Assembly (NCBI GenBank): GCA_013373515.1
Contig: JABXHR010000283.1
Coordinates: 1-11,912 of the forward strand
Direction: 5' to 3'
Length of the DNA stretch: 11,912 nt
Origin: Gammaproteobacteria bacterium
Lineage (GTDB): Bacteria > Pseudomonadota > Gammaproteobacteria > JABXHR01
The notes below the pieces were generated by a model. That model had not been told where the DNA came from and did not search any database. It saw nothing but the letters and a program-made list of their open reading frames with translations. Shown one piece after another: positions 88 through 11,386 of the stretch (positions are counted from its first letter, which is position 1; every line of letters begins with the position of its first letter). The position numbers and the translations under genes were made by a program.

Positions 88-1098
88 TTAGTCATTTTGA
101 ACCACTACTGTTTGCTCTATTGCACCAAAAATCGACCGACCCTCATCGTCTAGCATTTCGATTTTGACGGTATCACCGGCGGCCATAAATGGCGTCTTTG
201 GCCCGCCGTGTAAGATTGTTTCGACTGTACGCACCTCGGCTAGGCAGGAATAACCCAAGCCTCCCTCAGAAATCGGCTTGCCCGGCCCGCCATCAGCGTC
301 TTTGTTGGAGATGGTGCCAGACCCAATAATACTGCCCGCGCATAGTGGCCGCGTCTTGGCGGCGTGCGCCACCAGCTGCGCCATATCAAACACCATATCG
401 ACATGGGTTTGCGTGCGTCCCAGAGGCGAACCATTCAAATCAACCGCCATCGTGCCCTGAAGTTTGCGGCCATCCCAGCGTGCGCCTAGCGCGTCTGGCG
501 TCACAGCCACCGGCGAAAATGCGCTGGAGGGCTTGGATTGGAAAAAACCAAACCCCTTGGCGAGTTCACCTGGAATCAACCCACGCAGCGAAACGTCATT
601 AACCAACATCAGCAGACGAATCGCCTCAGCGGCTTGCTCCACTTTTGCGCCCATCGGCACATCGTCGACAATCACAGCAATTTCCGCTTCCATATCAATT
701 CCAAGCCCATCGATGGGCGGAACCGAGATGTGATCGCGCGGTCCAATAAAGCTGTCACTTCCGCCCTGATACATCAGTGGATCAGTCCAGAAGGTCTCGG
801 GCATCTCAGCGCCACGGGCCTTGCGAACCAACTCCACATGATTGACATAGGCTGAGCCGTCGGCCCACTGATAGGCACGCGGCAATGGTGAATGGCAATT
901 GGACGCAGCAAAGGCTTCACCGAGTGTGTCATCATCGGCCAATGACTCTGACAATGCGTACAATGCTGGCGCAATTGTTGCCCAATCATCCAATGCCGAT
1001 TGTAGGGTGCCGTCAAACGGCAAATAGCGACTGAGATCATCACTGACCACCGCCAATTGGCCGTCTCGGGTACCGTCCTTGATCGTGGCCAGTTTCAT
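88..1098 (-). CDS. Fumarylacetoacetate hydrolase (FAH) family protein, probable terminal hydrolase of the homogentisate pathway
   Basis: 336-aa ORF with FAH-fold hallmarks (GPRDHISVP..., metal-binding acidic cluster EAEIAVIV, glycine-rich [10 protein letters not shown]...GGPGKP). Its start ATG (1098..1096) overlaps the hmgA stop TGA (1097..1095) as ATGA, indicating translational coupling with hmgA. At 336 aa it is shorter than canonical fumarylacetoacetase (~430 aa), like the FAH-family gene found in Vibrio-type hmgA operons. Confidence 0.8.
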
Positions 1099-2405
1099 GC
1101 TTTTACTCCAGGTGTTCCATCAAATTTCTTTTCTAATCCCGACCAACAATCGGCGTAGTTTTTCTGCAAGAGCGGACTCTCGGCCGCAAAGCGCGTTGGA
1201 TGTTGCGGGAAACGGGTTTCAAACATAAAAGCCAGTGTGTCACGCATTCGTTCGGGCTTCAGTTCTGCATTGCTAGCGCCTTCAAATGAAGCATGATCTG
1301 GCCCGTGCGGGAACATCATATTGTGCAAGCTCATGCCGCCTGGGCTGAAACCATCGGGTTTGGCATCGTATTGCCCTTTTATGAGACCCATAAATTCCGA
1401 CATGATGTTTCGGTGAAACCAAGGCGGCCGGAAGCTGTGTTCCGCAACAGACCAACGCTCCGGGAAAATCACAAAATCGATATTAGCAGTGCCTTCCGTG
1501 TCAGTCGGCGAAGTCAGCACCGTAAAAATCGACGGATCAGGGTGGTCAAACAGCACCGCACCGACCGGTGAGAATGTCCTTAAGTCATACTTGTAAGGAG
1601 CATAATTGCCGTGCCAGGCGACCACATCTAGCGGGCTATGACCGATTTTGGTCGCGTAAAAGCGCCCGCACCATTTGTAAACCAGCGTGTGCGGTGTATC
1701 GAGATCCTCATAGGCAGCAACAGGGGTTTTAAAGTCGCGCGGGTTCGCAAGACAGTTGGCTCCGATCGGTCCACGATTGGGCAAGGTCAGCTTTGCACCG
1801 TAGTTTTCCAATACATAGCCAATGGCACACTCATCTAGCACTTTGACCTTCACGCCCATGCCACGAGGCAACACGGCAAGTTCGTTCGGCTCAACTTGAA
1901 TCCGACCCAGCTCCGTGTGTAATTCCAATCGCCCCTGCTGCGGAAGTATCAAAAGCTCGCCGTCAGCGTTGATCAAAACGCGATCTTCCATCGAGCAATT
2001 GCAGCTATACATCCCCGCTGTCATGCCCGAGTGCGTGTTGACGTCGCCCGCCGTGGTGATCGTGTAGAGGCCATCGATGAAATCCACTTCCTCAGTTGGT
2101 GCTGGGAATGGATTCCAACGATATTGGCCAAACGCCAGCACGTGCTGCTCAGCATAAGGCGCCGTTTTCCAGTGTGGAACCGTCACCTCGCTAAACGAAA
2201 CGCCATGACGCACTGAGGGACGGATGCGATACAACCACGAACGCTCGTTTTGCCCATGTGGCGCGGTAAACGGTGAACCACTCAGCTGTTCGGCATACAG
2301 GCCATAGTTACACTTTTGCGGAGAATTTTGACCTTGCGGCAAGGCGTCGGGCAATGATTCGGTTTCGAAGTCGTTGCCAAAACCGGGCATGTATTGCAAT
2401 GACAT
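1095..2405 (-). CDS. hmgA: Homogentisate 1,2-dioxygenase
   Basis: Full-length homology signature of Hmg[32 protein letters not shown]-terminus, cupin-fold core, ~436 aa. The ORF track starts at a TTG (2423). The ATG at 2405..2403 gives the canonical MSLQYM start and is preferred. The stop overlaps the FAH gene start. Confidence 0.9.
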
Positions 2406-2417
2406 GATTGAATTTCG

Positions 2418-2458
2418 TTTCAAATGAACAGATTTACGTATATTCTGTTCATTTGAAA
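2418..2458. promoter_or_regulatory. Perfect 15-bp inverted repeat (TTTCAAATGAACAGA-N11-TCTGTTCATTTGAAA), candidate operator in the divergent hmgA / MarR promoter region
   Basis: Read directly from the sequence: arms 2418..2432 and 2444..2458 are exact reverse complements, separated by tttacgtatat. It lies 13 bp upstream of the hmgA ATG and 25 bp upstream of the MarR ATG, and overlaps plausible -35/-10 elements for both divergent promoters. This is the typical geometry of a dimeric wHTH repressor site. Confidence 0.5.
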
Positions 2459-2482: not shown

Positions 2483-2929
2483 ATGACGAGCCAAATTTTT
2501 GATCTAGAACAGTACTTGCCCTACCTCGCCGCGCGGTTTGCAGGCCGTATCAGCCGTGCGCTGGCCGCTCGTTATCAGCAGCAATTTGACCTTAGTATTG
2601 CCGATTGGCGAATCATTGCTAACTTGTCGCAATTCGACGAAGTCTCGGTCAAGGACATCGTGGCAAGAGTGGAACTTGATCGCGTCAAAGTGACTCGTGC
2701 CGTGCAACAGTTGGTGCAGCGAGGGCTGTTGAGTAAGCACATCAATGCAGGAGATCGTCGACTGGTAAAATTGTCACTTACCCCGCAGGGCGTGGCGCTA
2801 TTTCAGGCACTGAAAACCATTGCGATACAGTTCGAACAAGAGGCGCTTTACGGCCTCACTGACGATGAAAAGCATACGCTAACCCACCTATTTTCCAAGA
2901 TTGAGAACAACTTACGTGAGAATCGATAA
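2483..2929 (+). CDS. MarR-family winged-helix transcriptional regulator, probable local regulator of hmgA
   Basis: 148 aa, the MarR size class. It has a central wHTH pattern (SVKDIVARVELDRVKVTRAVQQLVQRGLL...DRRLVKLSLTPQG). It is divergent from hmgA, with the palindromic operator candidate between the two genes. Confidence 0.8.
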   Translation: MTSQIFDLEQYLPYLAARFAGRISRALAARYQQQFDLSIADWRIIANLSQFDEVSVKDIVARVELDRVKVTRAVQQLVQRGLLSKHINAGDRRLVKLSLTPQGVALFQALKTIAIQFEQEALYGLTDDEKHTLTHLFSKIENNLRENR

Positions 2930-3189: not shown

Positions 3190-5160
3190 GTGGATATGCG
3201 CTGGATGAATACACGAGTAGATGACCACGATCTCACCAAAACTTCCCTTTCCAGAAGGCTGACGCTGATCATCGCCCCCATCCTGCTTTCAATCAGTTTG
3301 ATCGCGGGTTACTTGGTGGGTCTCTACAGCCAGAAGCTAGAGTACCAACGGCTTACCGAATCTCGCCAAGATCAGACCGACAATATCACGCTATTGATCA
3401 CTGATCAGGTGAGCTATTACCAGTACCATGTGGCAAGTGGCATCGCCGAAACACTGCGTCGTGCAGGCGAAGTGACTGCGCTCGAATTTATCGACAACGA
3501 CGATGTCAGGCGGGTCGCGGTAGGAGATACTGACGACCGTCAAACCGCTACGACGTCCATTGAGCTTCTCAATCGCCAACAAAGCTTTGTCGGCACCTTG
3601 TACCTCTGGTTTCCAGAAATCGATGTGGTACTCGACTGGCGCTGGGTCGTGATTCCACTGAGCAGCGCCGCTCTATTGTTGCTGTGTCTAGTGGCAGCGA
3701 TGGCTTTTATTTGGCGCAAACAGGTTGGCACACCGCTTAACCTAATTTACAACGCGATGCGCCAGACTCGCGGTGGTCGCGAAGTCCGCGTTTCCCTGCA
3801 ACGGGACGATGAGCTGGGCTACATCGCTGACAACTACAACCGAATGCTGGACCGCCTACAAGAGCATCGACGTGAAATAGAAGCGATGGCACATTACGAC
3901 CATCTAACCGGTGCAAGCTCACAGGCTTATTTTATTCAACGCCTTGAAACATTGATTAACTCGAAGAACACGCAGTCATACGAATTGTATTTTATTGATA
4001 TCAATCGATTTAAATGGATTAATGACACCTATGGCCATAGTGCAGGTGATCTTGTGATTAAAGCGTTCTATGAGCGTATCAAGGCGGCACTACCGCCAGA
4101 CACCCTGATAAGTCGCTTCGGTGGTGACGAGTTCGTATTTGTCATTCCGACCTCCGAGCTCGATCACCAGAGCGTTATAGCCAAGATTCAACTCGCTCAA
4201 AGCGCCGAATTCAAGATCAAGGGTGATATCGGGCTAAAGTTGACCGCCAGCATTGGTCACGCCAACTACCCTCAAGATGCCGGCGATTTTGAGCTACTAC
4301 TTCAAAAAGCCGACGCGGCCATGTATATCAATAAGCGACTAAGTGGCAACTGGAATAATTTAGACGCAACCACCCAGTACAGCTCACTCAATCGAGAAAA
4401 CCAACAGATATTCGCCATTTTGCAACACGGCAATTTCGAAGATGTGGTCACCATCGAATACCAACCCATCATTAATATCGACACCAATGAATTGAGCGCG
4501 CTTGAAGCGTTGCTGCGCTTGCACATCGACGGCAAAGTCATTCGCAATATATCGACCGAAACCATCATTCATTTGGCGGAGAAATCTGGTCTGATCAAAA
4601 ATATTGATCGCCAAGTCAGGCACGCAGTTTACACCCAAATTCAGCAATGGATGGCCGCAGGTATCTCAACGCCGCCAGTTCACCTCAACATCTCACCCGC
4701 CCTGCTCTCGGCAAGTCACTTCAAGCAGGAGCTAATCAAAGACACTGAGCAATTTGGTTTGAAAAACCGTAAAATTGTGCTTGAAATTACCGAGACTGTT
4801 GCGGTCTCGACAGATGCCCTGCCATTGATACAAAGTCTTAGACAAAGCGGTTTTCAGGTGGCATTGGATGATTTTGGCAAAGGCTACTCCTCACTTTCAA
4901 CACTTGCCAAGCTGCCTATCGATATCTTGAAACTAGACAAAGAGTTTTTCCAGTGTACAGAGGATCAAAAAGAGACCATTGCGCTGATTCGCTGCGTAGT
5001 TGATATGGCAAACGCTGTCGGTTGCAGGCTCATTGCAGAAGGGGTCGAACATAAACAAATTCACGAGGCGCTCGTTGCGCTAAATTGTCAATATGTACAG
5101 GGTAATTATTACGATTTCCCGATGTCTGCGGACGATATCAAAACCAAATATTTCACCTAG
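3190..5160 (+). CDS. Membrane-anchored sensor diguanylate cyclase/phosphodiesterase (periplasmic domain - TM - HAMP - GGDEF - EAL)
   Basis: 656-aa ORF with a GTG start at 3190; alternative ATGs at 3196 and 3205, no strong Shine-Dalgarno. Two TM helices (aa ~24-45 and ~153-175) flank a ~107-aa periplasmic region. HAMP-like linker at aa ~176-235. GGDEF domain with intact RFGGDEF (nt 4120..4134) and DINRFKWINDTYGH. EAL domain with EALLR (nt 4504..), LEITE, DDFGKGYSSL, KLDKEFF, AEGVEHK and QGNYY; all catalytic motifs are present. Confidence 0.9.
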   Translation: MDMRWMNTRVDDHDLTKTSLSRRLTLIIAPILLSISLIAGYLVGLYSQKLEYQRLTESRQDQTDNITLLITDQVSYYQYHVASGIAETLRRAGEVTALEFIDNDDVRRVAVGDTDDRQTATTSIELLNRQQSFVGTLYLWFPEIDVVLDWRWVVIPLSSAALLLLCLVAAMAFIWRKQVGTPLNLIYNAMRQTRGGREVRVSLQRDDELGYIADNYNRMLDRLQEHRREIEAMAHYDHLTGASSQAYFIQRLETLINSKNTQSYELYFIDINRFKWINDTYGHSAGDLVIKAFYERIKAALPPDTLISRFGGDEFVFVIPTSELDHQSVIAKIQLAQSAEFKIKGDIGLKLTASIGHANYPQDAGDFELLLQKADAAMYINKRLSGNWNNLDATTQYSSLNRENQQIFAILQHGNFEDVVTIEYQPIINIDTNELSALEALLRLHIDGKVIRNISTETIIHLAEKSGLIKNIDRQVRHAVYTQIQQWMAAGISTPPVHLNISPALLSASHFKQELIKDTEQFGLKNRKIVLEITETVAVSTDALPLIQSLRQSGFQVALDDFGKGYSSLSTLAKLPIDILKLDKEFFQCTEDQKETIALIRCVVDMANAVGCRLIAEGVEHKQIHEALVALNCQYVQGNYYDFPMSADDIKTKYFT

Positions 5161-5178
5161 CAACTCTATTTGCATATC

Positions 5179-5207
5179 TTGCATTACCAATCGAAACAGC
5201 GAATAAT
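5179..5207 (+). promoter_or_regulatory. Predicted sigma70 promoter for the SPFH gene (-35 TTGCAT, 17-nt spacer, -10 AATAAT)
   Basis: -35 TTGCAT at 5179..5184 (a second TTGCAT at 5170..5175), a 17-nt spacer, then -10 AATAAT at 5202..5207. This gives a TSS near 5214, an AAAGGAA Shine-Dalgarno at 5227..5233 and a GTG start at 5238. Pattern match only. Confidence 0.35.
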
Positions 5208-5237
5208 TATTGCGTTTAGCAACACAAAAGGAACATT

Positions 5238-6641
5238 GTGGAATTCATTATTTTGGGCGCGATACTGATCGCAGCCGGCTATCTGATTAACAACAAAATC
5301 CAACAACTTAACAACCTCCCTGTAAAACCATTATTAACTTTAATCGGCGCGGCTGCAGTGGGCTGGGGCGTTTTCACCGGCGCATTTTTCTATGCAGAGC
5401 CCGGTTACAAATACCATGTGCGCACCATTACGGGTAATGAAAGCATGGTCAAGGATGTTGGCTATAACATATACCTATTCGGTCGATATAACGCGTGGAA
5501 AAACGCCATGACGGTACAAGCCACCAAAGAAGGCTCCGGTACAGTTGTCGCCGAAGAAGAAAGCGCATCGACCAGTGCCAACTTGGGGCCGCAGACGCTG
5601 GTATTTTTGGATCAGGTCGACGCCGAAGTCACCGCGACCGCGCGTTTCTTGCTGCCCGATGACGAAACCAGCTTTTTACTGCTGGCCCGTCAATTTCGAT
5701 CACCAGAAAATTTGCTGCGCACAGAACTAATTCCTGCCTTTCAAGAAACGCTTGGCTCGACGGCATCTTTGCTGTCCGCAGAAGAGTATTTCTCGGGTGG
5801 ACGAACCCAATTCAATACAGAGTTCCAAAACCAAATGGAGCAAGGCATCTACAATGTCCGCCGCCGCGAGACCATGCAGCGCGTGTCACGTTCGCAAACC
5901 TCGAGCGCCAATGCAAGCTTAGGTATGGATCAACAGGATTTTGGCGATGACCAGCAAGTGGTATTCGTGGTAGAAAAAATCCTAGATGCCAACGGCCAAC
6001 CGCTTCGCAAGTCTCAGAACTTCTCGAAGTTTGGCATTTCTGTGGTGTCGGCGCGTATTACCGATGTCAATCCCAATAGCCGCTTCCGTGAACGTATGGA
6101 GCAAAAGCAAGCCGCAGCCGCAGCCAGAGCAGTTGCCCGCGAACAACGTGTTCAAGAAGAAGAGCAACGCCTCCTGGCCATCACCCGCGGCGAACGCGAA
6201 GTGGCCGAGCGTCAAGCCCAAGCCAAGGTGATCCAAATTGAGCAAACCACGCAAGCAGAGACTGAAAAACAGCTTGTAATTACCCAAGCACGTCAACGCA
6301 ACGAACAAGCCGAGATCGAACGTCAAACTGCGCTAATCAACCTTGAGCGTGCCAAGGTCGATGCCGAATCCAAACGGGTGGCTGCAGATGCTGCTGCCTA
6401 TGAAAAGCGTGCCATTTTGGAAGCGGATAATGCCCTACAGCAAAAACTCGAGGCATATGTGGAAGCGCAAAAATTCTGGGCGGATGCTTTTGCCAAGCGC
6501 AATGTTCCCACTCAAGTCTTTGGCGCGAACCAGTCAGGTGTTGGACAGGACAGTGATATCCAAACCTTTATGGATATCATGACCATGAAAGCGGCCAAAG
6601 ACCTATCTTTCGATCCCTCAATCGAATCGATTGGCAATTAA
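5238..6641 (+). CDS. Flotillin-like SPFH/band-7 domain membrane protein with a long C-terminal coiled coil
   Basis: 467-aa ORF with a GTG start and a good Shine-Dalgarno. Two N-terminal hydrophobic helices are followed by an SPFH-type core (…FGISVVSARITDVNPNSRFRERMEQKQAAAAARAVAREQ matches the conserved C-terminal SPFH block). Then comes ~130 aa of E/Q/R/A-rich heptad-like sequence, resembling the EA-repeat coiled coil of YqiK-type bacterial flotillins. Confidence 0.6.
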   Translation: MEFIILGAILIAAGYLINNKIQQLNNLPVKPLLTLIGAAAVGWGVFTGAFFYAEPGYKYHVRTITGNESMVKDVGYNIYLFGRYNAWKNAMTVQATKEGSGTVVAEEESASTSANLGPQTLVFLDQVDAEVTATARFLLPDDETSFLLLARQFRSPENLLRTELIPAFQETLGSTASLLSAEEYFSGGRTQFNTEFQNQMEQGIYNVRRRETMQRVSRSQTSSANASLGMDQQDFGDDQQVVFVVEKILDANGQPLRKSQNFSKFGISVVSARITDVNPNSRFRERMEQKQAAAAARAVAREQRVQEEEQRLLAITRGEREVAERQAQAKVIQIEQTTQAETEKQLVITQARQRNEQAEIERQTALINLERAKVDAESKRVAADAAAYEKRAILEADNALQQKLEAYVEAQKFWADAFAKRNVPTQVFGANQSGVGQDSDIQTFMDIMTMKAAKDLSFDPSIESIGN

Positions 6642-6839
6642 TGTGGTCGAACGGCGTGCACTCGGGCACGCTTGGGAGCTTTTAAAAGCCCCTCGCATCT
6701 TTCGCGGGGGTACTTGAGGGGTCGACCCTACGACGCTCTGAGCGAGGAAACGTTCGATGCGTCGTTGGGTACTAACGTGGGCAATGATAATCGAGTCCAC
6801 CAACCGCCGAGCGACTTGGAACGCACAAGGCGTAGCCCC
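6642..6839. other. GC-rich, hairpin/palindrome-dense convergent intergenic region (candidate structured RNA, bidirectional terminator cluster or decayed repeat element)
   Basis: No credible ORF; several short overlapping ORFs in different frames are typical of non-coding GC-rich DNA. The region contains consecutive stable hairpins and perfect palindromes:
- GCGTGC-ACTCGG-GCACGC (6654..6671);
- GCTTTTAAAAGC (6678..6689) inside GGGAGCTTTTAAAAGCCCC;
- CCCC(T)CGC-atctttc-GCGGGGG (6689..6710);
- GGGTCGACCC (6719..6728);
- ACGACGC-N22-GCGTCGT (6730..6765) with an inner GAAA-containing hairpin;
- AACGTT;
- CCTTAAGG (6838..6845).
GGGTACT recurs at 6708 and 6767. Confidence 0.3.
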
Positions 6840-7289
6840 TTAAGGCCACCGATAGGCCAAACCAGCGCACAGGCTAAAAAACGCCGCCCAATAAGGCAAA
6901 GCGCCTGACAGTAACAACTCAAAAATCACTTCTGATGTGGTCCATGTGCTGCCAGTCATTGCCATGTATGACCAACAGAGGCCGTAACTTAGCCACAAAA
7001 TACTGACATAAACGCCAATCACTGCAATCAAAGTTCGCCCAGTCATCCCGCTGATTGCGCGACTAAGCACTGCAACACCAATGCTCACCATCAGTGCCAG
7101 CGCAATTGAAACCCACAAATGTTCTGCGATAACCCCCTCGTAAACCGAAAGTCTGCTCAGTGCAGTCACCTCAGCCATGTGCGGCCAAAGACTCCCCCAA
7201 AAGAAACTCAAGCCACCGAGCCAAATGGCCCAAAAACTCACCAGTAAGACACGCATCTGCCACCTGGTCGCTGACCTAAATACACGCAC
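6840..7289 (-). CDS. Small hydrophobic inner-membrane protein, 4 predicted TM helices, unknown function
   Basis: 149-aa ORF from a GTG at 7289. A more likely ATG start at 7256 (MRVLLVSF...) is preceded by AGGTGG. Four hydrophobic stretches of 18-25 aa (LLVSFWAIWLGGLSFFWGSLW; LWVSIALALMVSIGVAVL; LIAVIGVYVSILWLSYGLCWSYMAM; VIFELLLSGALPYWAAFFSLCAGLAY). No recognisable family. Confidence 0.5.
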   Translation of the reverse strand: MRVFRSATRWQMRVLLVSFWAIWLGGLSFFWGSLWPHMAEVTALSRLSVYEGVIAEHLWVSIALALMVSIGVAVLSRAISGMTGRTLIAVIGVYVSILWLSYGLCWSYMAMTGSTWTTSEVIFELLLSGALPYWAAFFSLCAGLAYRWP

Positions 7290-7444
7290 TCACCCTTCGC
7301 ACCGCCGGTGAAAATTTTGATGAATAAAATATGAATTTCAAAAGAATGTTCTTCTGCGGCCGATAGCACCGATGATGATACCGCCATGGAGGCGGAGGCC
7401 AACGCCACAATGTGACTGTGGCAGGTCGTGAACAGGAATCGGTT
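7290..7444. promoter_or_regulatory. Divergent promoter region between the 4-TM membrane protein gene and the large protease/lipoprotein ORF
   Basis: An AT-rich block at 7308..7355 (gtgaaaattttgatgaataaaatatgaatttcaaaagaatgttcttc) contains TTGATG -35-like and TATGAA/AATAAA -10-like hexamers. An AGGAA Shine-Dalgarno at 7433..7437 sits 7 nt before the ATG at 7445. Confidence 0.3.
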
Positions 7445-10400
7445 ATGAATATTGTCAATCTCCTCTGCACTCGTTTATCTCGTTACCGCCTATTGGCTTG
7501 GTTGGCGGCAGCCCTCCCAGTGGCCGGTATTTCAATGGAATATTACCTGCCCGAGCAGCCCGAATCTGCAATCGCTGCGACGCTGCCCCTAGGTGACGTC
7601 ACGCTCGCATCGAGCTACCACGTCTATCAAGATCAAAAAATCACGCAAGGTGATATCTTGCTGCCCAAAGCCGGACTGAACGCAAGAAGCGCCATTTTTG
7701 ACAATCGCAGTCTATGGCAGAACGGCATTGTGCCTTATGTCATTGCCGAAGGTGTCAGCGACGGATTACGTGCGCGATTAACCGATGCCATTCAACATTG
7801 GCACGATGCGACGGGATTGCGCTTCGAAGCACATACCGACACTCATAACCTCGGCGCATTTGTCGCCGTCTATGGCGCGGATATTTGCGCCTCTAATATC
7901 GGCAAAGTGGGCACGGTAAATTACCTTCTGCTCTCTGAGTTCTGCTCAACGGGGTCTATCATCCACGAGCTGGGCCATACAGCAGGCCTACTCCACGAAC
8001 ATATGCGGTCTGATCGAGACGCCTACATTCAGATCAATACAGAGAACATCCGACCGCAAGCGCTGCACAATTTCACCGAGACTGCGCCGATCGGATTTCG
8101 CAATTTTGGTGACTACGACTTCGACAGCATAATGCACTACACAGCGACCGCGTTTTCAGCCAACGGCTCACCGACGATCACGGCTAGATATGCAAACGTC
8201 GAATTCGGGCAGCGAGATCACTTAAGTGCGCTAGACCGCGCCACGGTCAACCTAATGTACGGCAGCGATATCGCAATTCAAGCCACACTGAGCAATCAAA
8301 ATTCGACTCTGCCAACGCTAACCCTTACCGTTCACAATCAAGGGCCAATGGGTGTCAACGATATCGATCTTTCAATGGCCAGTACAGAGGGAATCGCCGC
8401 ACCACGGTTTACTGCCGGAAGCTGCGCCGAACAGTCAAAATGTGTTGTACCGCACTTGGACGCAGGCGAGCAAATTGAACTGATAGTACGCCTGTATAGC
8501 AGGGATATGGGCACGGATCACGTGAAAGTGACGGCCAGTAGTCAGGTTCACGACCACGACCTGAGCAACAACATGCACACGCTGCCTGTGGCGATCAACC
8601 ATATTTCACACCCGCCGATGCAAAACGACGAATTGACCAGTGTGGCGGGCGGCAGCCTGAGTGGATTCACGGCATTGGTATTGTCAATGCTTACACTGGT
8701 TACACGACAAACTCGACAGCGACCTCAGACGAAGTTACCCATCATCACAGTGGGCCCCCTGGCCGCCTTGTTGATGGTGTTAACGGGTTGCGAGCAAGGC
8801 TCAACTGCCATCGAAATCCGCGACCTTCAAAGCGATACAGCCTCCGTTAGTCAAGATGCCATCACACGCAATCTTTGGGCAAGCACCATACCCTTGGAGG
8901 CGGCCGACTCCATCCGACTATTAAAGACCACCGTTCGTGATCGACGGGGAGTCCACCACAATTGGGACGATGTCAGCGAGCGGATCGACACCAACCAGGC
9001 CACGATGAGCTTGCCTGCCTTCGAAAGCGATGAGGAGTTCTTAGGGGAAGTTTATCGATTGGAGGCAGATTTTGACGGCTACGTGATCGGACGCGTTCTT
9101 TACCAAGATCAAAATACGCCAAAAACACTTGCGCTAGAAATTTTGCCGATCCACGACCTTATTTATCAGTCAACACGCTGGACGGCACAGCGCACTGTTA
9201 GCCAAATCGAAGATGAAAAAGTCGACCAAATGGTCAATCTCGGCCTGAGCTTGATCAAGCGGATCGACTCGATTTGGCGCACATTGACGCTTGGGAAAAC
9301 ACATGCCTACACGCCGTTTGACGCCGATGCCGCCAAGCTCATTGACTTTAATAAGCCCATCGTTCTATCGCATTACGCCGAGCGGGTACACAAACAACAG
9401 GACAGAGGGCCAATAGTCACTGAACTGTTAAGCATGCACAGCTACGTGCCAGATCGCCGGCTCGACGACATTCTGCAAATTGGCAAGCAAGTGATTCTGA
9501 GCAACCAAAGTGCCTGCACCTGGTTAACCCAACGCTATCAGAGCGGATTCTTCAATATCAGCGATCAAGACCTCTGCCTAGATCCTGCAGACTTAATAGT
9601 GCACAATCACAACGCGATCGTCCTGCGCGTCCAACCCAATGTGCTGCAGCTCTACACGCTCAGCAACGAACGACTGATTTATGAAGATCGCCTGACTTTG
9701 GATGTGCCGATTTTAGATGTTGCCGCCTATGACAGTGGCTTCGCCATACTCGGCGACGATAAGGTGCTTTATTACTATCGCACCGACGGGGCCAAGTTTG
9801 AGTCAATCGACAGCATAGCAGTCAAATTTGGTCCGGTTGGATTACAAGTGTTTGATAACCAGCTGATGGTCTATGGCGTCCAAAATCATCTTTATCACCT
9901 GCAGGACAATCTGCTCGTTCATCAAAAGAAATTGCTCACCAAGGGTATCGTCGCTCAGGGCGGTGTAAGTGGAAAAGACTTTGTTATTTTGCACGGCAAG
10001 ACACGTCTATTGGTTTACCGACAAGCGGCAGACGGACTGCTGGCATACACAGAGCACCTAACTTGGGCTCCCATCTACTTCAGTCCCCCGCGCTCCGATC
10101 TTACCCTCGACGATGTGGTACTGATCGATGACCAACTTCATGGCATCTTCAGCTGGGCGTTCCACACAGGAGATGGGACACCAAGCGCAAGGCATTACTA
10201 CGATACGGCACACGTGATTCACGACGACAGTGGGCTACATGTCGATACCGCCTACACCCCCGTCAAAATTGGCGATCGAAAAAACAATGCCAAACTCAAA
10301 ATGGTGGGCACTACATTGATGATGGTACACAGTGACGGCCCACCGATTTCCCTTGGGACGAACTTTATCGAAGTATTGGAAAGTGCCCACAAATTCAATT

Positions 10401-11386
10401 ATCTAACCGACATCGAGCTGTTCGACACCAACGCAGCGAAAAATAGCGCGGTAGCGCTTGGCAAGGTGCCCGGTCAAGTCGACGCCTACTTGCGCGACAA
10501 TCTGTACATCGTCGAAGGTCATGACCGCTTGTATTACTACTACGCCCCGCTTGAAGACAGTGCAGTCTACCAAGTCGATCAAGGGATCGATTGGATGGGC
10601 AAGGTGGGTGATCAGTATTGGCTGACCTCCATGGACGGTCGATTGATACGGCTGACGCATGATAGTGACAACCAACAGTTTATTGAAACGCACAATACAA
10701 CCACCAAGCCAATCGAGTCAGCGGCTTCCGGCGATCATTTTGTAGCATGGAATCTCTATGGCAGCGGGCTGCATCTGAGCGCGCTTGAAGCAGATACACC
10801 ACAGAACGCCACGATTGCACTCGACATGGACAACATCAGCCATTACAAAGTTCACCGCAACCAAATCGCGGTCGGCGGTTTAGGTGAGTTGGCCGTATGG
10901 GAAATCGCACCCGATCTTGAGCCAACGCTACGCTACCGTGCAAACACCGCCAGTGTGATCGACGACATTGTGTGGCTGGACGACAACACCATCGCGTACA
11001 CAGACGGTGCACTCGGCGTCAAAGTGCTCTCGATCGATGGCCAATCCGTCCAAACCCTGTCCAGTATTGAAACCTACAGCACCGTCCGACAACTGGCCTA
11101 CGCGGATGGCTACCTTGCATTGGCTGACGAATCAAATACTCTGCTGGTCTATGACCTCAAAGACCCCAGCAAACCCCAAAATATCGGCGTGCTCGCACTG
11201 GTGCCAGAAATAAAGTCGATCGCGTTCAATCAAGTGCCCGTGCCGGGTACAGACTTAGTCAACCCCTATCTACAGCTAAGTCTTAGCGGCAGTACGCTCT
11301 ATCAGCTTTTTGTGCCACAACGACAGCTTGCATGTGATGGTCTTGCCGCGCTGGAGGATGGTCGACGGCATTGTAGGGTGAATTAG
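7412..11386 (+). CDS. Large secreted multidomain protein: signal peptide, astacin-family (M12A) zinc metalloprotease, CARDB/DUF11-like domain, GlyGly-CTERM-like segment, lipoprotein-type signal/lipobox, then an LVIVD-repeat beta-propeller-like region. Apparent in-frame fusion of two genes.
   Basis: Continuous 1324-codon ORF. The likely real start is the ATG at 7445 (MNIVNLLCTRLSRYRLLAWLAAALPVAGIS is a signal peptide) with an AGGAA Shine-Dalgarno.
- Astacin signature HELGHTAGLLHEHMRSDRD at nt 7964..8020 (HExxHxxGxxHExxRxDRD) and Met-turn SIMHY at 8126..8140.
- DUF11/CARDB-like beta domain, aa ~290-400.
- aa 412-439, AGGSLSGFTALVLSMLTLVTRQTRQRPQ (nt 8645..8728), matches the GlyGly-CTERM architecture.
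- aa 441-460, KLPIITVGPLAALLMVLTGC (nt 8732..8791), is a lipoprotein signal peptide with an LTGC lipobox.
- The C-terminal ~860 aa carry LVIVD-type repeats (e.g. VRQLAYADGYLALADESNTLLVYDLKDPSKPQNIGVLAL at nt ~11084..11203) and other YYY/propeller-like repeats. Confidence 0.85.
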   Translation: MTVAGREQESVMNIVNLLCTRLSRYRLLAWLAAALPVAGISMEYYLPEQPESAIAATLPLGDVTLASSYHVYQDQKITQGDILLPKAGLNARSAIFDNRSLWQNGIVPYVIAEGVSDGLRARLTDAIQHWHDATGLRFEAHTDTHNLGAFVAVYGADICASNIGKVGTVNYLLLSEFCSTGSIIHELGHTAGLLHEHMRSDRDAYIQINTENIRPQALHNFTETAPIGFRNFGDYDFDSIMHYTATAFSANGSPTITARYANVEFGQRDHLSALDRATVNLMYGSDIAIQATLSNQNSTLPTLTLTVHNQGPMGVNDIDLSMASTEGIAAPRFTAGSCAEQSKCVVPHLDAGEQIELIVRLYSRDMGTDHVKVTASSQVHDHDLSNNMHTLPVAINHISHPPMQNDELTSVAGGSLSGFTALVLSMLTLVTRQTRQRPQTKLPIITVGPLAALLMVLTGCEQGSTAIEIRDLQSDTASVSQDAITRNLWASTIPLEAADSIRLLKTTVRDRRGVHHNWDDVSERIDTNQATMSLPAFESDEEFLGEVYRLEADFDGYVIGRVLYQDQNTPKTLALEILPIHDLIYQSTRWTAQRTVSQIEDEKVDQMVNLGLSLIKRIDSIWRTLTLGKTHAYTPFDADAAKLIDFNKPIVLSHYAERVHKQQDRGPIVTELLSMHSYVPDRRLDDILQIGKQVILSNQSACTWLTQRYQSGFFNISDQDLCLDPADLIVHNHNAIVLRVQPNVLQLYTLSNERLIYEDRLTLDVPILDVAAYDSGFAILGDDKVLYYYRTDGAKFESIDSIAVKFGPVGLQVFDNQLMVYGVQNHLYHLQDNLLVHQKKLLTKGIVAQGGVSGKDFVILHGKTRLLVYRQAADGLLAYTEHLTWAPIYFSPPRSDLTLDDVVLIDDQLHGIFSWAFHTGDGTPSARHYYDTAHVIHDDSGLHVDTAYTPVKIGDRKNNAKLKMVGTTLMMVHSDGPPISLGTNFIEVLESAHKFNYLTDIELFDTNAAKNSAVALGKVPGQVDAYLRDNLYIVEGHDRLYYYYAPLEDSAVYQVDQGIDWMGKVGDQYWLTSMDGRLIRLTHDSDNQQFIETHNTTTKPIESAASGDHFVAWNLYGSGLHLSALEADTPQNATIALDMDNISHYKVHRNQIAVGGLGELAVWEIAPDLEPTLRYRANTASVIDDIVWLDDNTIAYTDGALGVKVLSIDGQSVQTLSSIETYSTVRQLAYADGYLALADESNTLLVYDLKDPSKPQNIGVLALVPEIKSIAFNQVPVPGTDLVNPYLQLSLSGSTLYQLFVPQRQLACDGLAALEDGRRHCRVN
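8645..8791 (+). other. Internal junction carrying two sorting signals: GlyGly-CTERM-like motif (8645..8728) directly followed by a lipoprotein signal peptide with lipobox LTGC (8732..8791)
   Basis: Read directly from the translation: GGS, a hydrophobic helix and the basic cluster TRQTRQR, then KLPIITVGPLAALLMVLTGC-EQG. No stop codon separates the two. A GTG at 8750 (V447) is a possible but Shine-Dalgarno-less internal start. The ACG AAG at 8729..8734 would read ATG AAG (MKLPII...) with one substitution. Confidence 0.5.

What the first reader, a model, noticed from the sequence alone, without database searches (positions are those of the whole stretch)
7694..8611. Astacin-family (M12A) zinc metalloprotease domain with CARDB/DUF11-like beta domain in a bacterium
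The extended astacin zinc-binding consensus HExxHxxGxxHExxRxDRD is matched exactly (HELGHTAGLLHEHMRSDRD, nt 7964..8020), followed at the canonical distance by the Met-turn SIMHY (8126..8140). Astacins are predominantly metazoan. Bacterial members (flavastacin/myroilysin-like) are sparse and patchily distributed. The domain is followed by a DUF11/CARDB-type beta-sandwich and the GlyGly-CTERM motif, which implies a cell-surface-retained or secreted protease, a candidate virulence or nutrient-acquisition factor.
Basis: partly seen in the sequence, partly recalled or inferred. Interest (0 to 1): 0.55.

Follow-up and report, generated by a model that had tools for sequence, protein, structure and literature searches.

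The report
Bacterial astacin protease in two-module protein
The window holds a genuine astacin-type zinc protease gene from a marine bacterium, but the supposed C-terminal sorting signal lies in the middle of a 1313-residue protein, directly followed by a lipoprotein-type signal and a large domain with almost no relatives, so the gene may encode two membrane-tethered products.

Summary
The astacin call is correct. Pfam Astacin scores E=1.2e-42. The predicted fold superposes on BMP-1 (TM 0.89, rmsd 2.1 A). A signal peptide, a GD(I) aspartate-switch propeptide and a DUF11 beta-sandwich are also present.

The gene boundaries and the "GlyGly-CTERM" reading are wrong. The ORF runs 7445-11386 (1313 aa). 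The GG/hydrophobic/RQTRQR segment (aa 401-426) is internal. It is followed in frame by a lipoprotein-type signal ending in the lipobox LTGC (Cys449), then by 864 residues. These have no close relative except one ortholog, and only aa 1048-1266 weakly resemble LVIVD beta-propellers.

The same GG / TM / basic / short hydrophobic / ISGC arrangement is kept in the one ortholog (63-74% identity). There the downstream module is under strong purifying selection.

Best reading: an exported astacin zymogen joined by a membrane hairpin built from two sorting signals to a beta-rich partner module. The precursor is probably split at the lipobox. That processing is inferred, not shown.

The protease itself is a new member of a known kind. 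The architecture is an unusual variant supported by only two genomes.

The parts
7445..11386 (+). Whole gene: 1313 codons plus TAG. Identical to NCBI MAG protein HWE20_17355. The ATG at 7445 is preferred over the upstream GTG at 7412.
   Evidence: ORF list. P0001 is 100% identical at 1313 aa. The ortholog starts at the aligned ATG. AGGA lies 6-9 nt upstream of the ATG. The same ORF appears in the 11.9-kb MAG contig and in the 73-kb Logan assembly.
7445..7528 (+). Predicted Sec signal peptide (aa 1-28, MNIVNLLCTRLSRYRLLAWLAAALPVAG). Cleavage after VAG is inferred.
   Evidence: One of only three hydrophobic segments in the protein. Modelled as a helix, residues 2-23. The ortholog has SVG at the same place. 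No signal-peptide predictor was available.
7529..7687 (+). Propeptide (aa 29-81) with the aspartate-switch motif QGDIL (nt 7646-7660, Asp70). The probable activation site is around NAR|SA.
   Evidence: D70 is nearly invariant in the 15-sequence alignment, as xEGDI in bacterial homologs. The model aligns to the proastacin zymogen 3lq0 over 225 columns. The FXGDI motif and its role are described in PMC9848320. The activation site is inferred from the alignment to the BMP-1 N-terminus.
7688..8263 (+). Astacin (M12A) catalytic domain. It carries the zinc motif HELGHTAGLLHEHMRSDRD (7964-8020), the Met-turn SIMHY (8126-8140, Tyr232 is the fifth ligand) and the Cys148/Cys167 pair.
   Evidence: Pfam PF01400, E=1.2e-42. 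PDB phmmer hit to BMP-1, 1e-26. Model pLDDT is 82-96 over most of the domain, dipping to 72 in one loop block. Foldseek to 3edg: TM 0.89, rmsd 2.1 A. H174, H178, H184, E185, R188, D190, R191 and M230 are invariant; E175, Y232 and C148 are nearly invariant.
8267..8581 (+). DUF11 (PF01345) beta-sandwich domain, aa 275-379.
   Evidence: Pfam DUF11 at 25.4 and 28.2 bits against a cutoff of 24.6; CARDB is below its cutoff. The model shows six beta strands at moderate confidence, pLDDT 52-77.
8645..8722 (+). GlyGly-CTERM-like segment in an internal position: AGG-S, a hydrophobic helix (SLSGFTALVLSMLTLVT), and the basic cluster RQTRQR. It is read as a stop-transfer helix (TM1).
   Evidence: Hydropathy peak at aa 400-420. 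No TIGR03501 hit for the window segment. The ortholog segment GGGSLGWLGMMGLAIAAVAKWLSSRRRK scores 16.3 bits against a cutoff of 15.5 when excised. There is no stop codon after it.
8723..8791 (+). Internal lipoprotein-type signal: PQTK, then the hydrophobic LPIITVGPLAALLMV, then the lipobox L-T-G-C (Cys449, nt 8789-8791).
   Evidence: Strongest hydropathy peak in the protein, aa 429-449. The ortholog keeps RRRK-IGK-IVCMAMLALW-ISGC while the rest of the hairpin is only 30% identical. NF058595 'invert_tail' gives weak hits at 18.8 and 15.4 bits, cutoff 37.
8792..11383 (+). C-terminal module (aa 450-1313, 864 residues). No family could be assigned to most of it, and it looks beta-rich.
   Evidence: The word-based search found only the protein itself. 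Exhaustive phmmer over 1.84 billion representatives gave a best E of 2.6e-12, all hits local. There were no Pfam or NCBIfam hits above cutoff and no PDB sequence relatives. Against the ortholog, amino-acid identity is 65-75%, pN 0.15-0.21, with pS saturated. The single-sequence AlphaFold model is unusable, pLDDT 35.
10586..11242 (+). Region resembling an LVIVD-repeat beta-propeller (aa 1048-1266). The clearest blade is aa 1209-1249 (…YADGYLALADESNTLLVYDLKDPSKPQNIG).
   Evidence: All 162 weak phmmer hits map to this region. Five of the six top hits scanned are LVIVD-repeat proteins; the sixth is a WD40 protein. A profile built from the hits covers aa 1048-1266, and a single-repeat profile matches 1209-1249. 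Pfam LVIVD itself does not hit.

Best explanation
Gene 7445-11386 encodes one 1313-residue envelope precursor with two extracytoplasmic modules.

Module 1 is a pre-pro-astacin. It has a Sec signal peptide, a propeptide whose Asp70 (QGDIL) blocks the zinc site until it is removed, a complete M12A catalytic domain, and a DUF11 beta-sandwich.

Module 2 is an 864-residue, probably beta-rich domain with LVIVD-like propeller blades near its end.

The two are joined by a membrane hairpin that looks like two sorting signals placed back to back. The first is a GlyGly-CTERM-like stop-transfer helix with a basic cluster on the cytoplasmic side. The second is a lipoprotein-type signal with a conserved lipobox cysteine on the periplasmic side.

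Inferred mechanism:
1. Sec exports module 1.
2. TM1 stops transfer.
3. The second hydrophobic segment re-initiates export of module 2.
4. Lgt and Lsp lipidate and cleave at Cys449. This splits the precursor into a membrane-tethered astacin and a lipoprotein partner made in 1:1 ratio.
5. The astacin part may additionally be released from TM1 by a rhomboid-type protease.

What is shown: the astacin identity and fold, the intact catalytic residues, the single continuous frame, conservation of the hairpin features, and purifying selection on module 2.

What is inferred: the topology, both cleavages, activity and substrate.

Sub-confidences: active exported astacin zymogen 0.9; single polypeptide with a hairpin 0.8; cleavage at the lipobox about 0.5; rhombosortase cleavage about 0.25.
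For: Astacin identity:
- Pfam Astacin E=1.2e-42.
- PDB sequence hits to BMP-1, TLL-1, hatching enzymes and astacin, 1e-26 to 1e-20.
- Model-to-structure TM 0.79-0.89, including the proastacin zymogen.
- Zinc ligands, general base, Met-turn, Tyr and the propeptide Asp are invariant or nearly invariant.

One gene, not two:
- There is no stop codon between 7445 and 11384.
- The identical ORF is in two assemblies, the MAG contig and the Logan 73-kb contig.
- The ortholog in GCA_030425885.1 is in frame through the hairpin.
- No promoter-like site lies on the + strand inside the gene, and there is no Shine-Dalgarno before the internal ATG at 8686.

Hairpin features conserved despite 30% identity:
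- GG, hydrophobic helix, RQTRQR/SSRRRK, second hydrophobic stretch, and [LI][TS]GC are all kept.
- The ortholog's second hydrophobic stretch is only 13 residues (IVCMAMLALWISG). That is signal-peptide length and short for a permanent span (interpretation from general knowledge).
- The ortholog's first segment passes TIGR03501 when excised.

Module 2 is functional: pN 0.15-0.21 against saturated pS.

Protease and propeller pairing recurs. Other bacterial astacins are fused directly to PD40 or NHL/SGL propellers, and LVIVD proteins are fused to C13 peptidases.

One 35%-identical relative (P0010) is astacin + DUF11 + Gly-rich linker + a true C-terminal hydrophobic/RRR tail and nothing else. That is the likely ancestral state of module 1.
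Against: - Only two genomes carry this architecture. In one of them (L002) a ~56-nt gap with a frameshift interrupts DUF11.
- The window's GG segment does not reach the GlyGly-CTERM model.
- No rhombosortase, T2SS, lgt or lsp genes could be looked for, because only about 24 kb of the genome was readable.
- No signal-peptide, lipoprotein or topology predictor was available. The lipobox call rests on the consensus pattern and its conservation.
- I found no report of a natural bacterial precursor split at an internal lipobox, so the processing step has no direct precedent.
- The hairpin is modelled at pLDDT below 50.
- The fold and function of module 2 remain unknown.
Confidence: 0.55

Rival explanations
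1. The hairpin is a permanent anchor that is never cleaved. The product is a single ~140-kDa inner-membrane protein, with the astacin-DUF11 module and the beta-rich module both on the periplasmic face. The resemblance to sorting signals is a relic of a past gene fusion.
For: The continuous frame and conserved hairpin fit this equally well. The window's GG segment fails TIGR03501. The window's second hydrophobic stretch is about 18 residues, long enough to span the membrane. There is a weak similarity to NF058595, described as a C-terminal anchoring domain.
Against: The lipobox [LI][TS]GC is conserved exactly at the periplasmic end of the second segment, while the surrounding residues diverge to 30% identity. 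The ortholog's second stretch is only 13 hydrophobic residues. A periplasm-confined astacin would have no obvious access to external protein substrates (inference).
Confidence: 0.28
2. One reading: the protease ends at the GlyGly-CTERM tag (about nt 8722) and is an ordinary rhombosortase/T2SS-sorted surface protease. What follows is a separate downstream lipoprotein gene.
For: The segment has the tripartite GG / hydrophobic / basic layout. The ortholog's version reaches the TIGR03501 cutoff when excised. A distant relative, P0010, ends in a comparable tail. The downstream part begins with a good lipoprotein signal.
Against: Neither genome has a stop codon, intergenic spacer or ribosome-binding site between the two parts. 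The basic cluster is shared by both signals. Two assemblies agree on the sequence. The defining 'extreme C-terminus' position (PMC3237569) is not met.
Confidence: 0.05
3. Two proteins come from one frame through internal initiation. The full-length or N-terminal product is made from ATG 7445, and an independent lipoprotein is made from an internal start such as ATG 8686 (MLTLVTRQTRQRPQTK…LTGC).
For: Both orthologs have Met codons inside TM1. In L002 the upstream frameshift would leave module 2 dependent on its own start, yet module 2 is still under purifying selection.
Against: There is no Shine-Dalgarno sequence before 8686 and no promoter-like site on the + strand. The resulting signal peptide would have an odd hydrophobic-basic-hydrophobic N-terminus. 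The L002 lesion may be an assembly error.
Confidence: 0.08
4. The long ORF is an artefact or a decaying fusion (chimeric assembly or pseudogene) with no functional meaning.
For: The source is a metagenome-assembled genome. The only ortholog carries a frameshift. Module 2 has no relatives elsewhere.
Against: The identical ORF is recovered in the MEGAHIT co-assembly contig and in the Logan assembly of a single run. The arrangement is syntenic and in frame in a second species at 63-74% identity. Purifying selection acts on all parts, and GC content is uniform across the junction.
Confidence: 0.04

Closest known systems
Astacin family M12A (crayfish astacin, BMP-1/tolloid, hatching enzymes, meprins)
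   Same: It has the full HExxHxxGxxHExxRxDRD motif, the SxMHY Met-turn with the Tyr ligand, one conserved Cys pair and a GD(I) aspartate-switch propeptide. Identity to BMP-1 and HCE-1 catalytic domains is 29-35%, with TM 0.84-0.89.
   Different: It is bacterial. The second astacin disulfide appears absent, because the catalytic domain has only two Cys. The downstream domains are DUF11, a membrane hairpin and a module of unknown family, instead of CUB, EGF, MAM or TRAF.
Bacterial astacins: Legionella LegP (NCBIfam NF045530), flavastacin, myroilysin
   Same: It has the same catalytic family in a bacterium. The LegP model aligns over almost its whole length (positions 21-242 of 244) at 174 bits. 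Bacterial relatives at 35-43% identity share the xEGDI propeptide.
   Different: It scores below the LegP equivalog cutoff of 300 bits. It has a Sec signal peptide, whereas LegP is described as a Dot/Icm T4SS effector. Myroilysin is a much poorer structural match (E~1e-9, TM 0.5-0.6) and uses a cysteine switch, not the Asp switch (PMC9848320).
GlyGly-CTERM / rhombosortase substrates (V. cholerae VesB, VesA, VesC, VCA0065)
   Same: A protease domain is followed by a linker, a GG motif, a hydrophobic helix and an Arg-rich cluster. In VesB this directs cleavage by rhombosortase, lipid attachment and surface display through the T2SS (PMC6219818, PMC13393428).
   Different: Here the tag is internal, with 887 residues after it. 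The window's copy fails TIGR03501. Presence of a rhombosortase in the genome is unknown.
Bacterial lipoprotein precursors (Lgt/Lsp pathway)
   Same: There is a positively charged n-region, a 13-18-residue hydrophobic region and a lipobox [LI][TS]GC, with the Cys conserved in both orthologs.
   Different: The signal begins at residue ~427 of the precursor instead of residue 1. I found no natural precedent. Engineered internalised lipoprotein signals have been reported to work in E. coli (my recollection, not checked here).
Stop-transfer plus internal-signal hairpins at junctions of flavivirus and pestivirus polyproteins (functional analogy only)
   Same: The logic is the same: an anchor helix is followed by a second helix that acts as an internal signal and is cut on the lumenal side, so one translation product yields two membrane-associated proteins (established textbook knowledge, not tested here).
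   Different: There is no homology. Those systems are eukaryotic ER and signal peptidase I, whereas this is a bacterial inner membrane with a presumed signal peptidase II.

Membership tests
Astacin, MEROPS M12A / Pfam PF01400 | Extended zinc-binding consensus HExxHxxGxxHExxRxDRD | tested here: met
   HELGHTAGLLHEHMRSDRD at nt 7964-8020. H174, H178, H184, E185, R188, D190 and R191 are invariant across 15 homologs.
Astacin, MEROPS M12A / Pfam PF01400 | Met-turn SxMHY with the tyrosine fifth zinc ligand at the canonical spacing | tested here: met
   SIMHY at nt 8126-8140. M230 is invariant and Y232 nearly invariant. There are 46 residues from the third His to the Met.
Astacin, MEROPS M12A / Pfam PF01400 | Family HMM above the curated threshold, with no better-scoring metzincin family | tested here: met
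   146.2 bits against a cutoff of 22.5. It is the only protease family reported.
Astacin, MEROPS M12A / Pfam PF01400 | Astacin fold by superposition on solved structures | tested here: met
   The model's catalytic part has pLDDT 82-96 over most of its length, 72 in one loop block. Foldseek gives 3edg TM 0.89 / 2.1 A, 3vtg 0.85, 1ast 0.84 and the proastacin zymogen 3lq0 0.79. MMPs and snapalysin reach only E~1e-4.
Astacin, MEROPS M12A / Pfam PF01400 | Propeptide with the FXGDI aspartate switch | tested here: met
   TQGDIL at nt 7646-7660 (QGDIL). D70 is nearly invariant, and homologs have xEGDI. The Phe of FXGDI is Thr here. The motif's role is taken from PMC9848320.
Astacin, MEROPS M12A / Pfam PF01400 | Zinc-dependent endopeptidase activity | not testable with these tools
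   This needs expression and zymography.
LegP (NCBIfam NF045530, equivalog) | Score at or above the equivalog cutoff (300 bits) | tested here: not met
   174.2 bits. It is LegP-like but not a LegP equivalog.
GlyGly-CTERM sorting domain (TIGR03501) | GG signature directly followed by a hydrophobic helix and a basic cluster | tested here: met
   AGG-SLSGFTALVLSMLTLVT-RQTRQR. The ortholog has GGG-SLGWLGMMGLAIAAVAKWL-SSRRRK.
GlyGly-CTERM sorting domain (TIGR03501) | Location at the extreme C-terminus of the protein | tested here: not met
   887 residues follow in frame, and this holds in both orthologs. The C-terminal position is stated as part of the definition in PMC3237569.
GlyGly-CTERM sorting domain (TIGR03501) | HMM score at or above 15.5 bits | tested here: not met
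   The window segment gives no hit at E<=10. The ortholog's excised segment scores 16.3 bits, which drops to 14.1 when the following hairpin residues are included.
GlyGly-CTERM sorting domain (TIGR03501) | Rhombosortase encoded in the same genome | not testable with these tools
   Only about 24 kb of the 73-kb contig was readable, and it holds no rhomboid gene.
Bacterial lipoprotein signal peptide (Lgt/Lsp substrates) | Lipobox [LVI][ASTVI][GAS]C preceded by a hydrophobic region and a basic n-region | tested here: met
   RQTRQRPQTK-LPIITVGPLAALLMV-LTGC in the window and RRRKIGK-IVCMAMLALW-ISGC in the ortholog.
Bacterial lipoprotein signal peptide (Lgt/Lsp substrates) | Signal located at the N-terminus of the precursor | tested here: not met
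   It starts at about residue 427 of 1313.
Bacterial lipoprotein signal peptide (Lgt/Lsp substrates) | Diacylglyceryl modification and Lsp cleavage at the Cys | not testable with these tools
   This needs globomycin treatment, palmitate labelling or mass spectrometry.
DUF11 (Pfam PF01345) / CARDB (PF07705) | HMM above the gathering threshold | tested here: met
   DUF11 scores 25.4 bits in the whole protein and 28.2 alone, cutoff 24.6. CARDB scores 15.7 against 22.7 and is not met.
LVIVD-repeat beta-propeller (Pfam PF08309) | Pfam LVIVD repeat hits above 20.2 bits | tested here: inconclusive
   Pfam LVIVD gives no hit. However, phmmer matches LVIVD proteins locally (best 2.6e-12), and a profile built from them covers aa 1048-1266.
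NF058595 'invert_tail' (lipo-invert putative C-terminal anchoring domain) | HMM score at or above 37 bits | tested here: not met
   18.8 bits for the window and 15.4 for the ortholog, over model positions 30-75 and 30-86 of 113. No description of the family was found in the literature library.

The most novel reading that the evidence does not exclude
The gene encodes a bacterial envelope 'polyprotein'. A C-terminal-type sorting signal (GlyGly-CTERM-like, cut by a rhomboid-type protease) and an N-terminal-type lipoprotein signal (cut by Lsp) are fused back to back and share one basic cluster. A single Sec-inserted precursor would then be resolved into two separately lipid-anchored surface proteins, an astacin protease and a beta-propeller partner, plus a discarded hairpin peptide of about 45 residues. 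As far as I could find, this would be the first natural case of an internal lipobox used to split a bacterial precursor.
Probability: 0.2. Interest if true: 0.65.

Novelty: new variant of a known kind. Interest (0 to 1): 0.4.

Why it matters
The protease alone adds little. It is one more bacterial astacin, this time from a free-living coastal bacterium and not an animal-associated one. It also carries the aspartate-switch propeptide motif that a 2023 review (PMC9848320) describes as shared among animal orthologues.

The architecture is the more useful lead. If the internal lipobox is processed, it would show that bacterial sorting machineries (Lgt/Lsp, and possibly rhombosortase) can act on internal signals to produce two stoichiometric envelope proteins from one gene. 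That would also imply that genome annotation pipelines miss such products when they look for these signals only at protein termini.

The practical lesson for this scan is that a 'CTERM' motif should be checked against the actual stop codon.

Tried and rejected
- Three word-based protein searches were run: whole protein, C-terminal module and N-terminal 462 aa. The whole-protein and C-module searches found only the protein itself plus astacin-domain hits. The N-terminal search found one ortholog fragment.
- Exhaustive phmmer of the C-terminal module gave only weak local hits to LVIVD and other propeller proteins.
- Two scans of genome contigs and two of metagenome contigs, using patterns from the C-module and from the astacin subfamily, found no relatives.
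- Single-sequence AlphaFold of the C-terminal module had pLDDT 35.5 and was unusable, so no fold search was made on it.
- A PDB sequence search of the C-terminal module found nothing below E=0.9.
- The afdb50 fold library was not available.
- Literature searches for 'lipo-invert' and for internal lipobox or polyprotein lipoproteins found nothing useful.
- P0010's neighbourhood was checked for a separate lipoprotein partner that could represent a pre-fusion state. The next gene is lpxB, so this gave no support.
- Rejected: serralysin, adamalysin or MMP assignment.
- Rejected: LegP equivalog.
- Rejected: recent horizontal transfer judged from composition, because GC is 0.49-0.55 across the gene and similar to the flanks.
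Full report
**1. Observation**

The window contains one long ORF on the + strand, from GTG 7412 or ATG 7445 to TAG 11384-11386. HELGHTAGLLHEHMRSDRD is at nt 7964-8020 and SIMHY at nt 8126-8140, exactly as stated. The third zinc histidine and the Met-turn methionine are 46 residues apart.

Pfam Astacin PF01400 matches residues 102-283 (GTG numbering) at 146 bits, E=1.2e-42. DUF11 matches the next ~105 residues just above its gathering score. The sequence features inside the coordinates are therefore real and far beyond chance.

**2. The gene**

The protein is 100% identical to the NCBI entry 'MAG: hypothetical protein HWE20_17355 [Gammaproteobacteria bacterium]', 1313 aa, starting at ATG 7445.

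The window appears to be the whole 11,912-nt MAG contig. The same ORF sits on a 73-kb Logan assembly of run SRR11434631. That run belongs to a study of coastal seawater communities enriched on phytoplankton exometabolites, in which the MAG was co-assembled with MEGAHIT (PMC7378039). Two assemblies therefore agree on the sequence, and the organism is a free-living or phycosphere marine gammaproteobacterium.

**3. The astacin module**

By sequence, the nearest solved structures are BMP-1, tolloid-like 1, fish hatching enzymes, Limulus and crayfish astacin, and meprins (E 1e-26 to 1e-16).

An AlphaFold2 model of the first 462 residues, built with a 15-sequence alignment, has pLDDT 82-96 across most of the catalytic domain, dipping to 72 in one loop block. 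Foldseek places it on:
- BMP-1 3edg (TM 0.89, rmsd 2.1 A);
- HCE-1 (0.85);
- astacin 1ast (0.84);
- the proastacin zymogen 3lq0 (0.79 over 225 columns).

Myroilysin is a weaker match (E~1e-9). MMPs and snapalysin are at E~1e-4.

In the alignment of homologs, H174, H178, H184, E185, R188, D190, R191 and M230 are invariant. E175, Y232, C148 and D70 are nearly invariant (ATG numbering).

D70 lies in TQGDIL, and bacterial relatives have xEGDI there. This is the FXGDI aspartate-switch motif of astacin propeptides. A recent review describes that motif as shared among animal orthologues and notes that bacterial myroilysin uses a cysteine switch instead (PMC9848320).

An N-terminal hydrophobic segment (aa 15-32) has VAG/SVG at the likely signal peptidase site in the two orthologs. 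This indicates Sec export.

NCBIfam's Legionella LegP model aligns nearly end to end but scores 174 bits against a cutoff of 300. The protein is LegP-like, not a LegP equivalog.

All catalytic residues are intact, so an active, exported zymogen is the straightforward reading.

**4.

The segment AGGSLSGFTALVLSMLTLVTRQTRQR (nt 8645-8722) has the GG / hydrophobic / basic layout of a GlyGly-CTERM tag. But no stop codon follows it.

The frame continues with PQTK-LPIITVGPLAALLMV-LTGC (nt 8723-8791). This has the features of a lipoprotein signal peptide ending in a lipobox. A further 864 residues follow. These two hydrophobic stretches and the N-terminal signal are the only hydrophobic segments in the protein.

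The window's GG segment gives no hit to TIGR03501, even when excised. Position at the extreme C-terminus is part of that family's definition (PMC3237569) and is not met here.

**5. The ortholog**

One close relative exists, in GCA_030425885.1 (locus L002). It is syntenic with the same GGDEF-EAL and Band_7 neighbours. Identity is 74% over the pro-astacin part and 63% over the rest.

Its junction reads GGG-SLGWLGMMGLAIAAVAKWL-SSRRRK-IGK-IVCMAMLALW-ISGC-D, in frame. All five features (GG, helix, basic cluster, second hydrophobic stretch, lipobox Cys) are kept, although this region is only 30% identical.

The ortholog's excised GG segment just passes TIGR03501 at 16.3 bits against 15.5. Its second hydrophobic stretch is only 13 residues. 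That is typical of a cleaved signal peptide and short for a permanent membrane span.

Both junctions hit NCBIfam NF058595 ('lipo-invert putative C-terminal anchoring domain') weakly and below cutoff. I found no description of that family.

L002 lacks about 56 nt inside DUF11, which shifts the frame. Even so, the downstream module shows pN 0.15-0.21 against saturated pS (~0.75). The lesion is therefore recent or an assembly error, and the downstream module is a functional coding sequence in both lineages.

**6. The C-terminal module**

- The word-based search found only the protein itself.
- Exhaustive phmmer over 1.84 billion representatives gave 162 weak hits (best 2.6e-12). All map to aa ~1130-1260.
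- Five of the six top hits scanned are LVIVD-repeat beta-propeller proteins and the sixth is a WD40 protein.
- A profile built from the hits extends the similarity to aa 1048-1266. One blade (aa 1209-1249) is a clear LVIVD-like repeat. Pfam LVIVD itself does not hit.
- Residues 450-1047 have no detectable relatives. There is no PDB sequence match, and the single-sequence AlphaFold model is unusable.
- Four scans of genome and metagenome contig collections found no further members.

Other bacterial astacins are fused directly to PD40 or NHL/SGL propellers. LVIVD proteins are also found fused to C13 peptidases. A protease-propeller partnership is thus a recurring theme. A 35%-identical relative (P0010) is astacin + DUF11 + Gly-rich linker + a genuinely C-terminal hydrophobic/RRR tail, with lpxB as the next gene. 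That looks like the ancestral form of module 1.

**7. Mechanism**

Shown:
- astacin identity and fold;
- intact catalytic and latency residues;
- a single continuous frame in two assemblies and two species;
- conserved hairpin features;
- selection on module 2.

Inferred:
1. Sec exports module 1.
2. The GG helix stops transfer, with the basic cluster held in the cytoplasm (positive-inside rule).
3. The second hydrophobic stretch re-initiates export of module 2.
4. Lgt/Lsp act at the conserved lipobox and separate a lipoprotein (module 2) from a hairpin-anchored astacin.
5. A rhomboid-type protease might further free the astacin at the GG site, as rhombosortase does for VesB (PMC6219818, PMC13393428).

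The design resembles the anchor-plus-internal-signal hairpins at flavivirus polyprotein junctions (textbook knowledge; an analogy only).

I give 0.9 to 'active exported astacin zymogen', 0.8 to 'one polypeptide with a hairpin', about 0.5 to lipobox cleavage and about 0.25 to rhombosortase cleavage.

The main rival is an uncleaved hairpin anchor (0.28).

**8. Novelty and verdict**

Bacterial astacins are known but sporadic. The review counts fewer than 400 sequences outside Holozoa, including Legionella, Bacillus, flavastacin and myroilysin. My searches found further diverse multi-domain bacterial examples. The protease is therefore a new member of a known kind.

The internal back-to-back sorting signals joining it to the 864-residue C-terminal module are an unusual variant. 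I found no precedent for this arrangement. It rests on two genomes and no experiment.

Interest is 0.4. The astacin claim is correct but ordinary. The architecture is a testable oddity worth a modest follow-up.

Noticed in passing
L002:5480-5560 (GCA_030425885.1, JAUHZQ010000061.1): The only ortholog lacks about 56 nt inside the DUF11 domain. This shifts the frame, so the gene is called as two ORFs (4596-5555 and 5539-7329). The downstream part is nevertheless under strong purifying selection, which suggests a recent lesion or an assembly error.
   Followed up: partly
window 88-2423 (-) and 2483-2929 (+): A fumarylacetoacetate hydrolase gene and a homogentisate 1,2-dioxygenase gene (tyrosine/phenylalanine catabolism) lie next to a divergently transcribed MarR-family regulator. 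This looks like an ordinary catabolic operon.
   Followed up: no
window 3190-5160 (+) and 5238-6641 (+): A membrane-anchored GGDEF-EAL protein and a Band_7/SPFH protein with a long Q/E/A-rich coiled-coil tail lie upstream of the astacin gene. Both are syntenic in the ortholog's contig. NCBI calls the Band_7 protein 452 aa and Logan calls it 467 aa, so the start codons differ.
   Followed up: partly
window 6840-7289 (-): A 149-residue, very hydrophobic ORF (called as 138 aa in the Logan annotation) with no recorded Pfam family is transcribed divergently from the astacin gene. No such gene is called in the shorter corresponding gap of L002.
   Followed up: no
P0003, P0004; P0025, P0028: Other bacterial astacins are fused directly to PD40 or NHL/SGL beta-propellers. 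Several LVIVD-propeller proteins carry a C13 (legumain-type) peptidase domain. Protease-propeller pairing therefore seems to be a recurrent design.
   Followed up: partly
window 8591-8830 (+); L002 5700-5920: Both hairpin regions give weak, sub-threshold hits to NCBIfam NF058595 'invert_tail' (lipo-invert putative C-terminal anchoring domain). I could find no published description of that family. It may describe a related two-helix anchor.
   Followed up: partly
window 8267-8581 (+): Pfam PF01345 is labelled DUF11 in the HMM library used here, but 'CLIPPER' in the precomputed domain tables of the contig look-up tool. The family seems to have been renamed.
   Followed up: no
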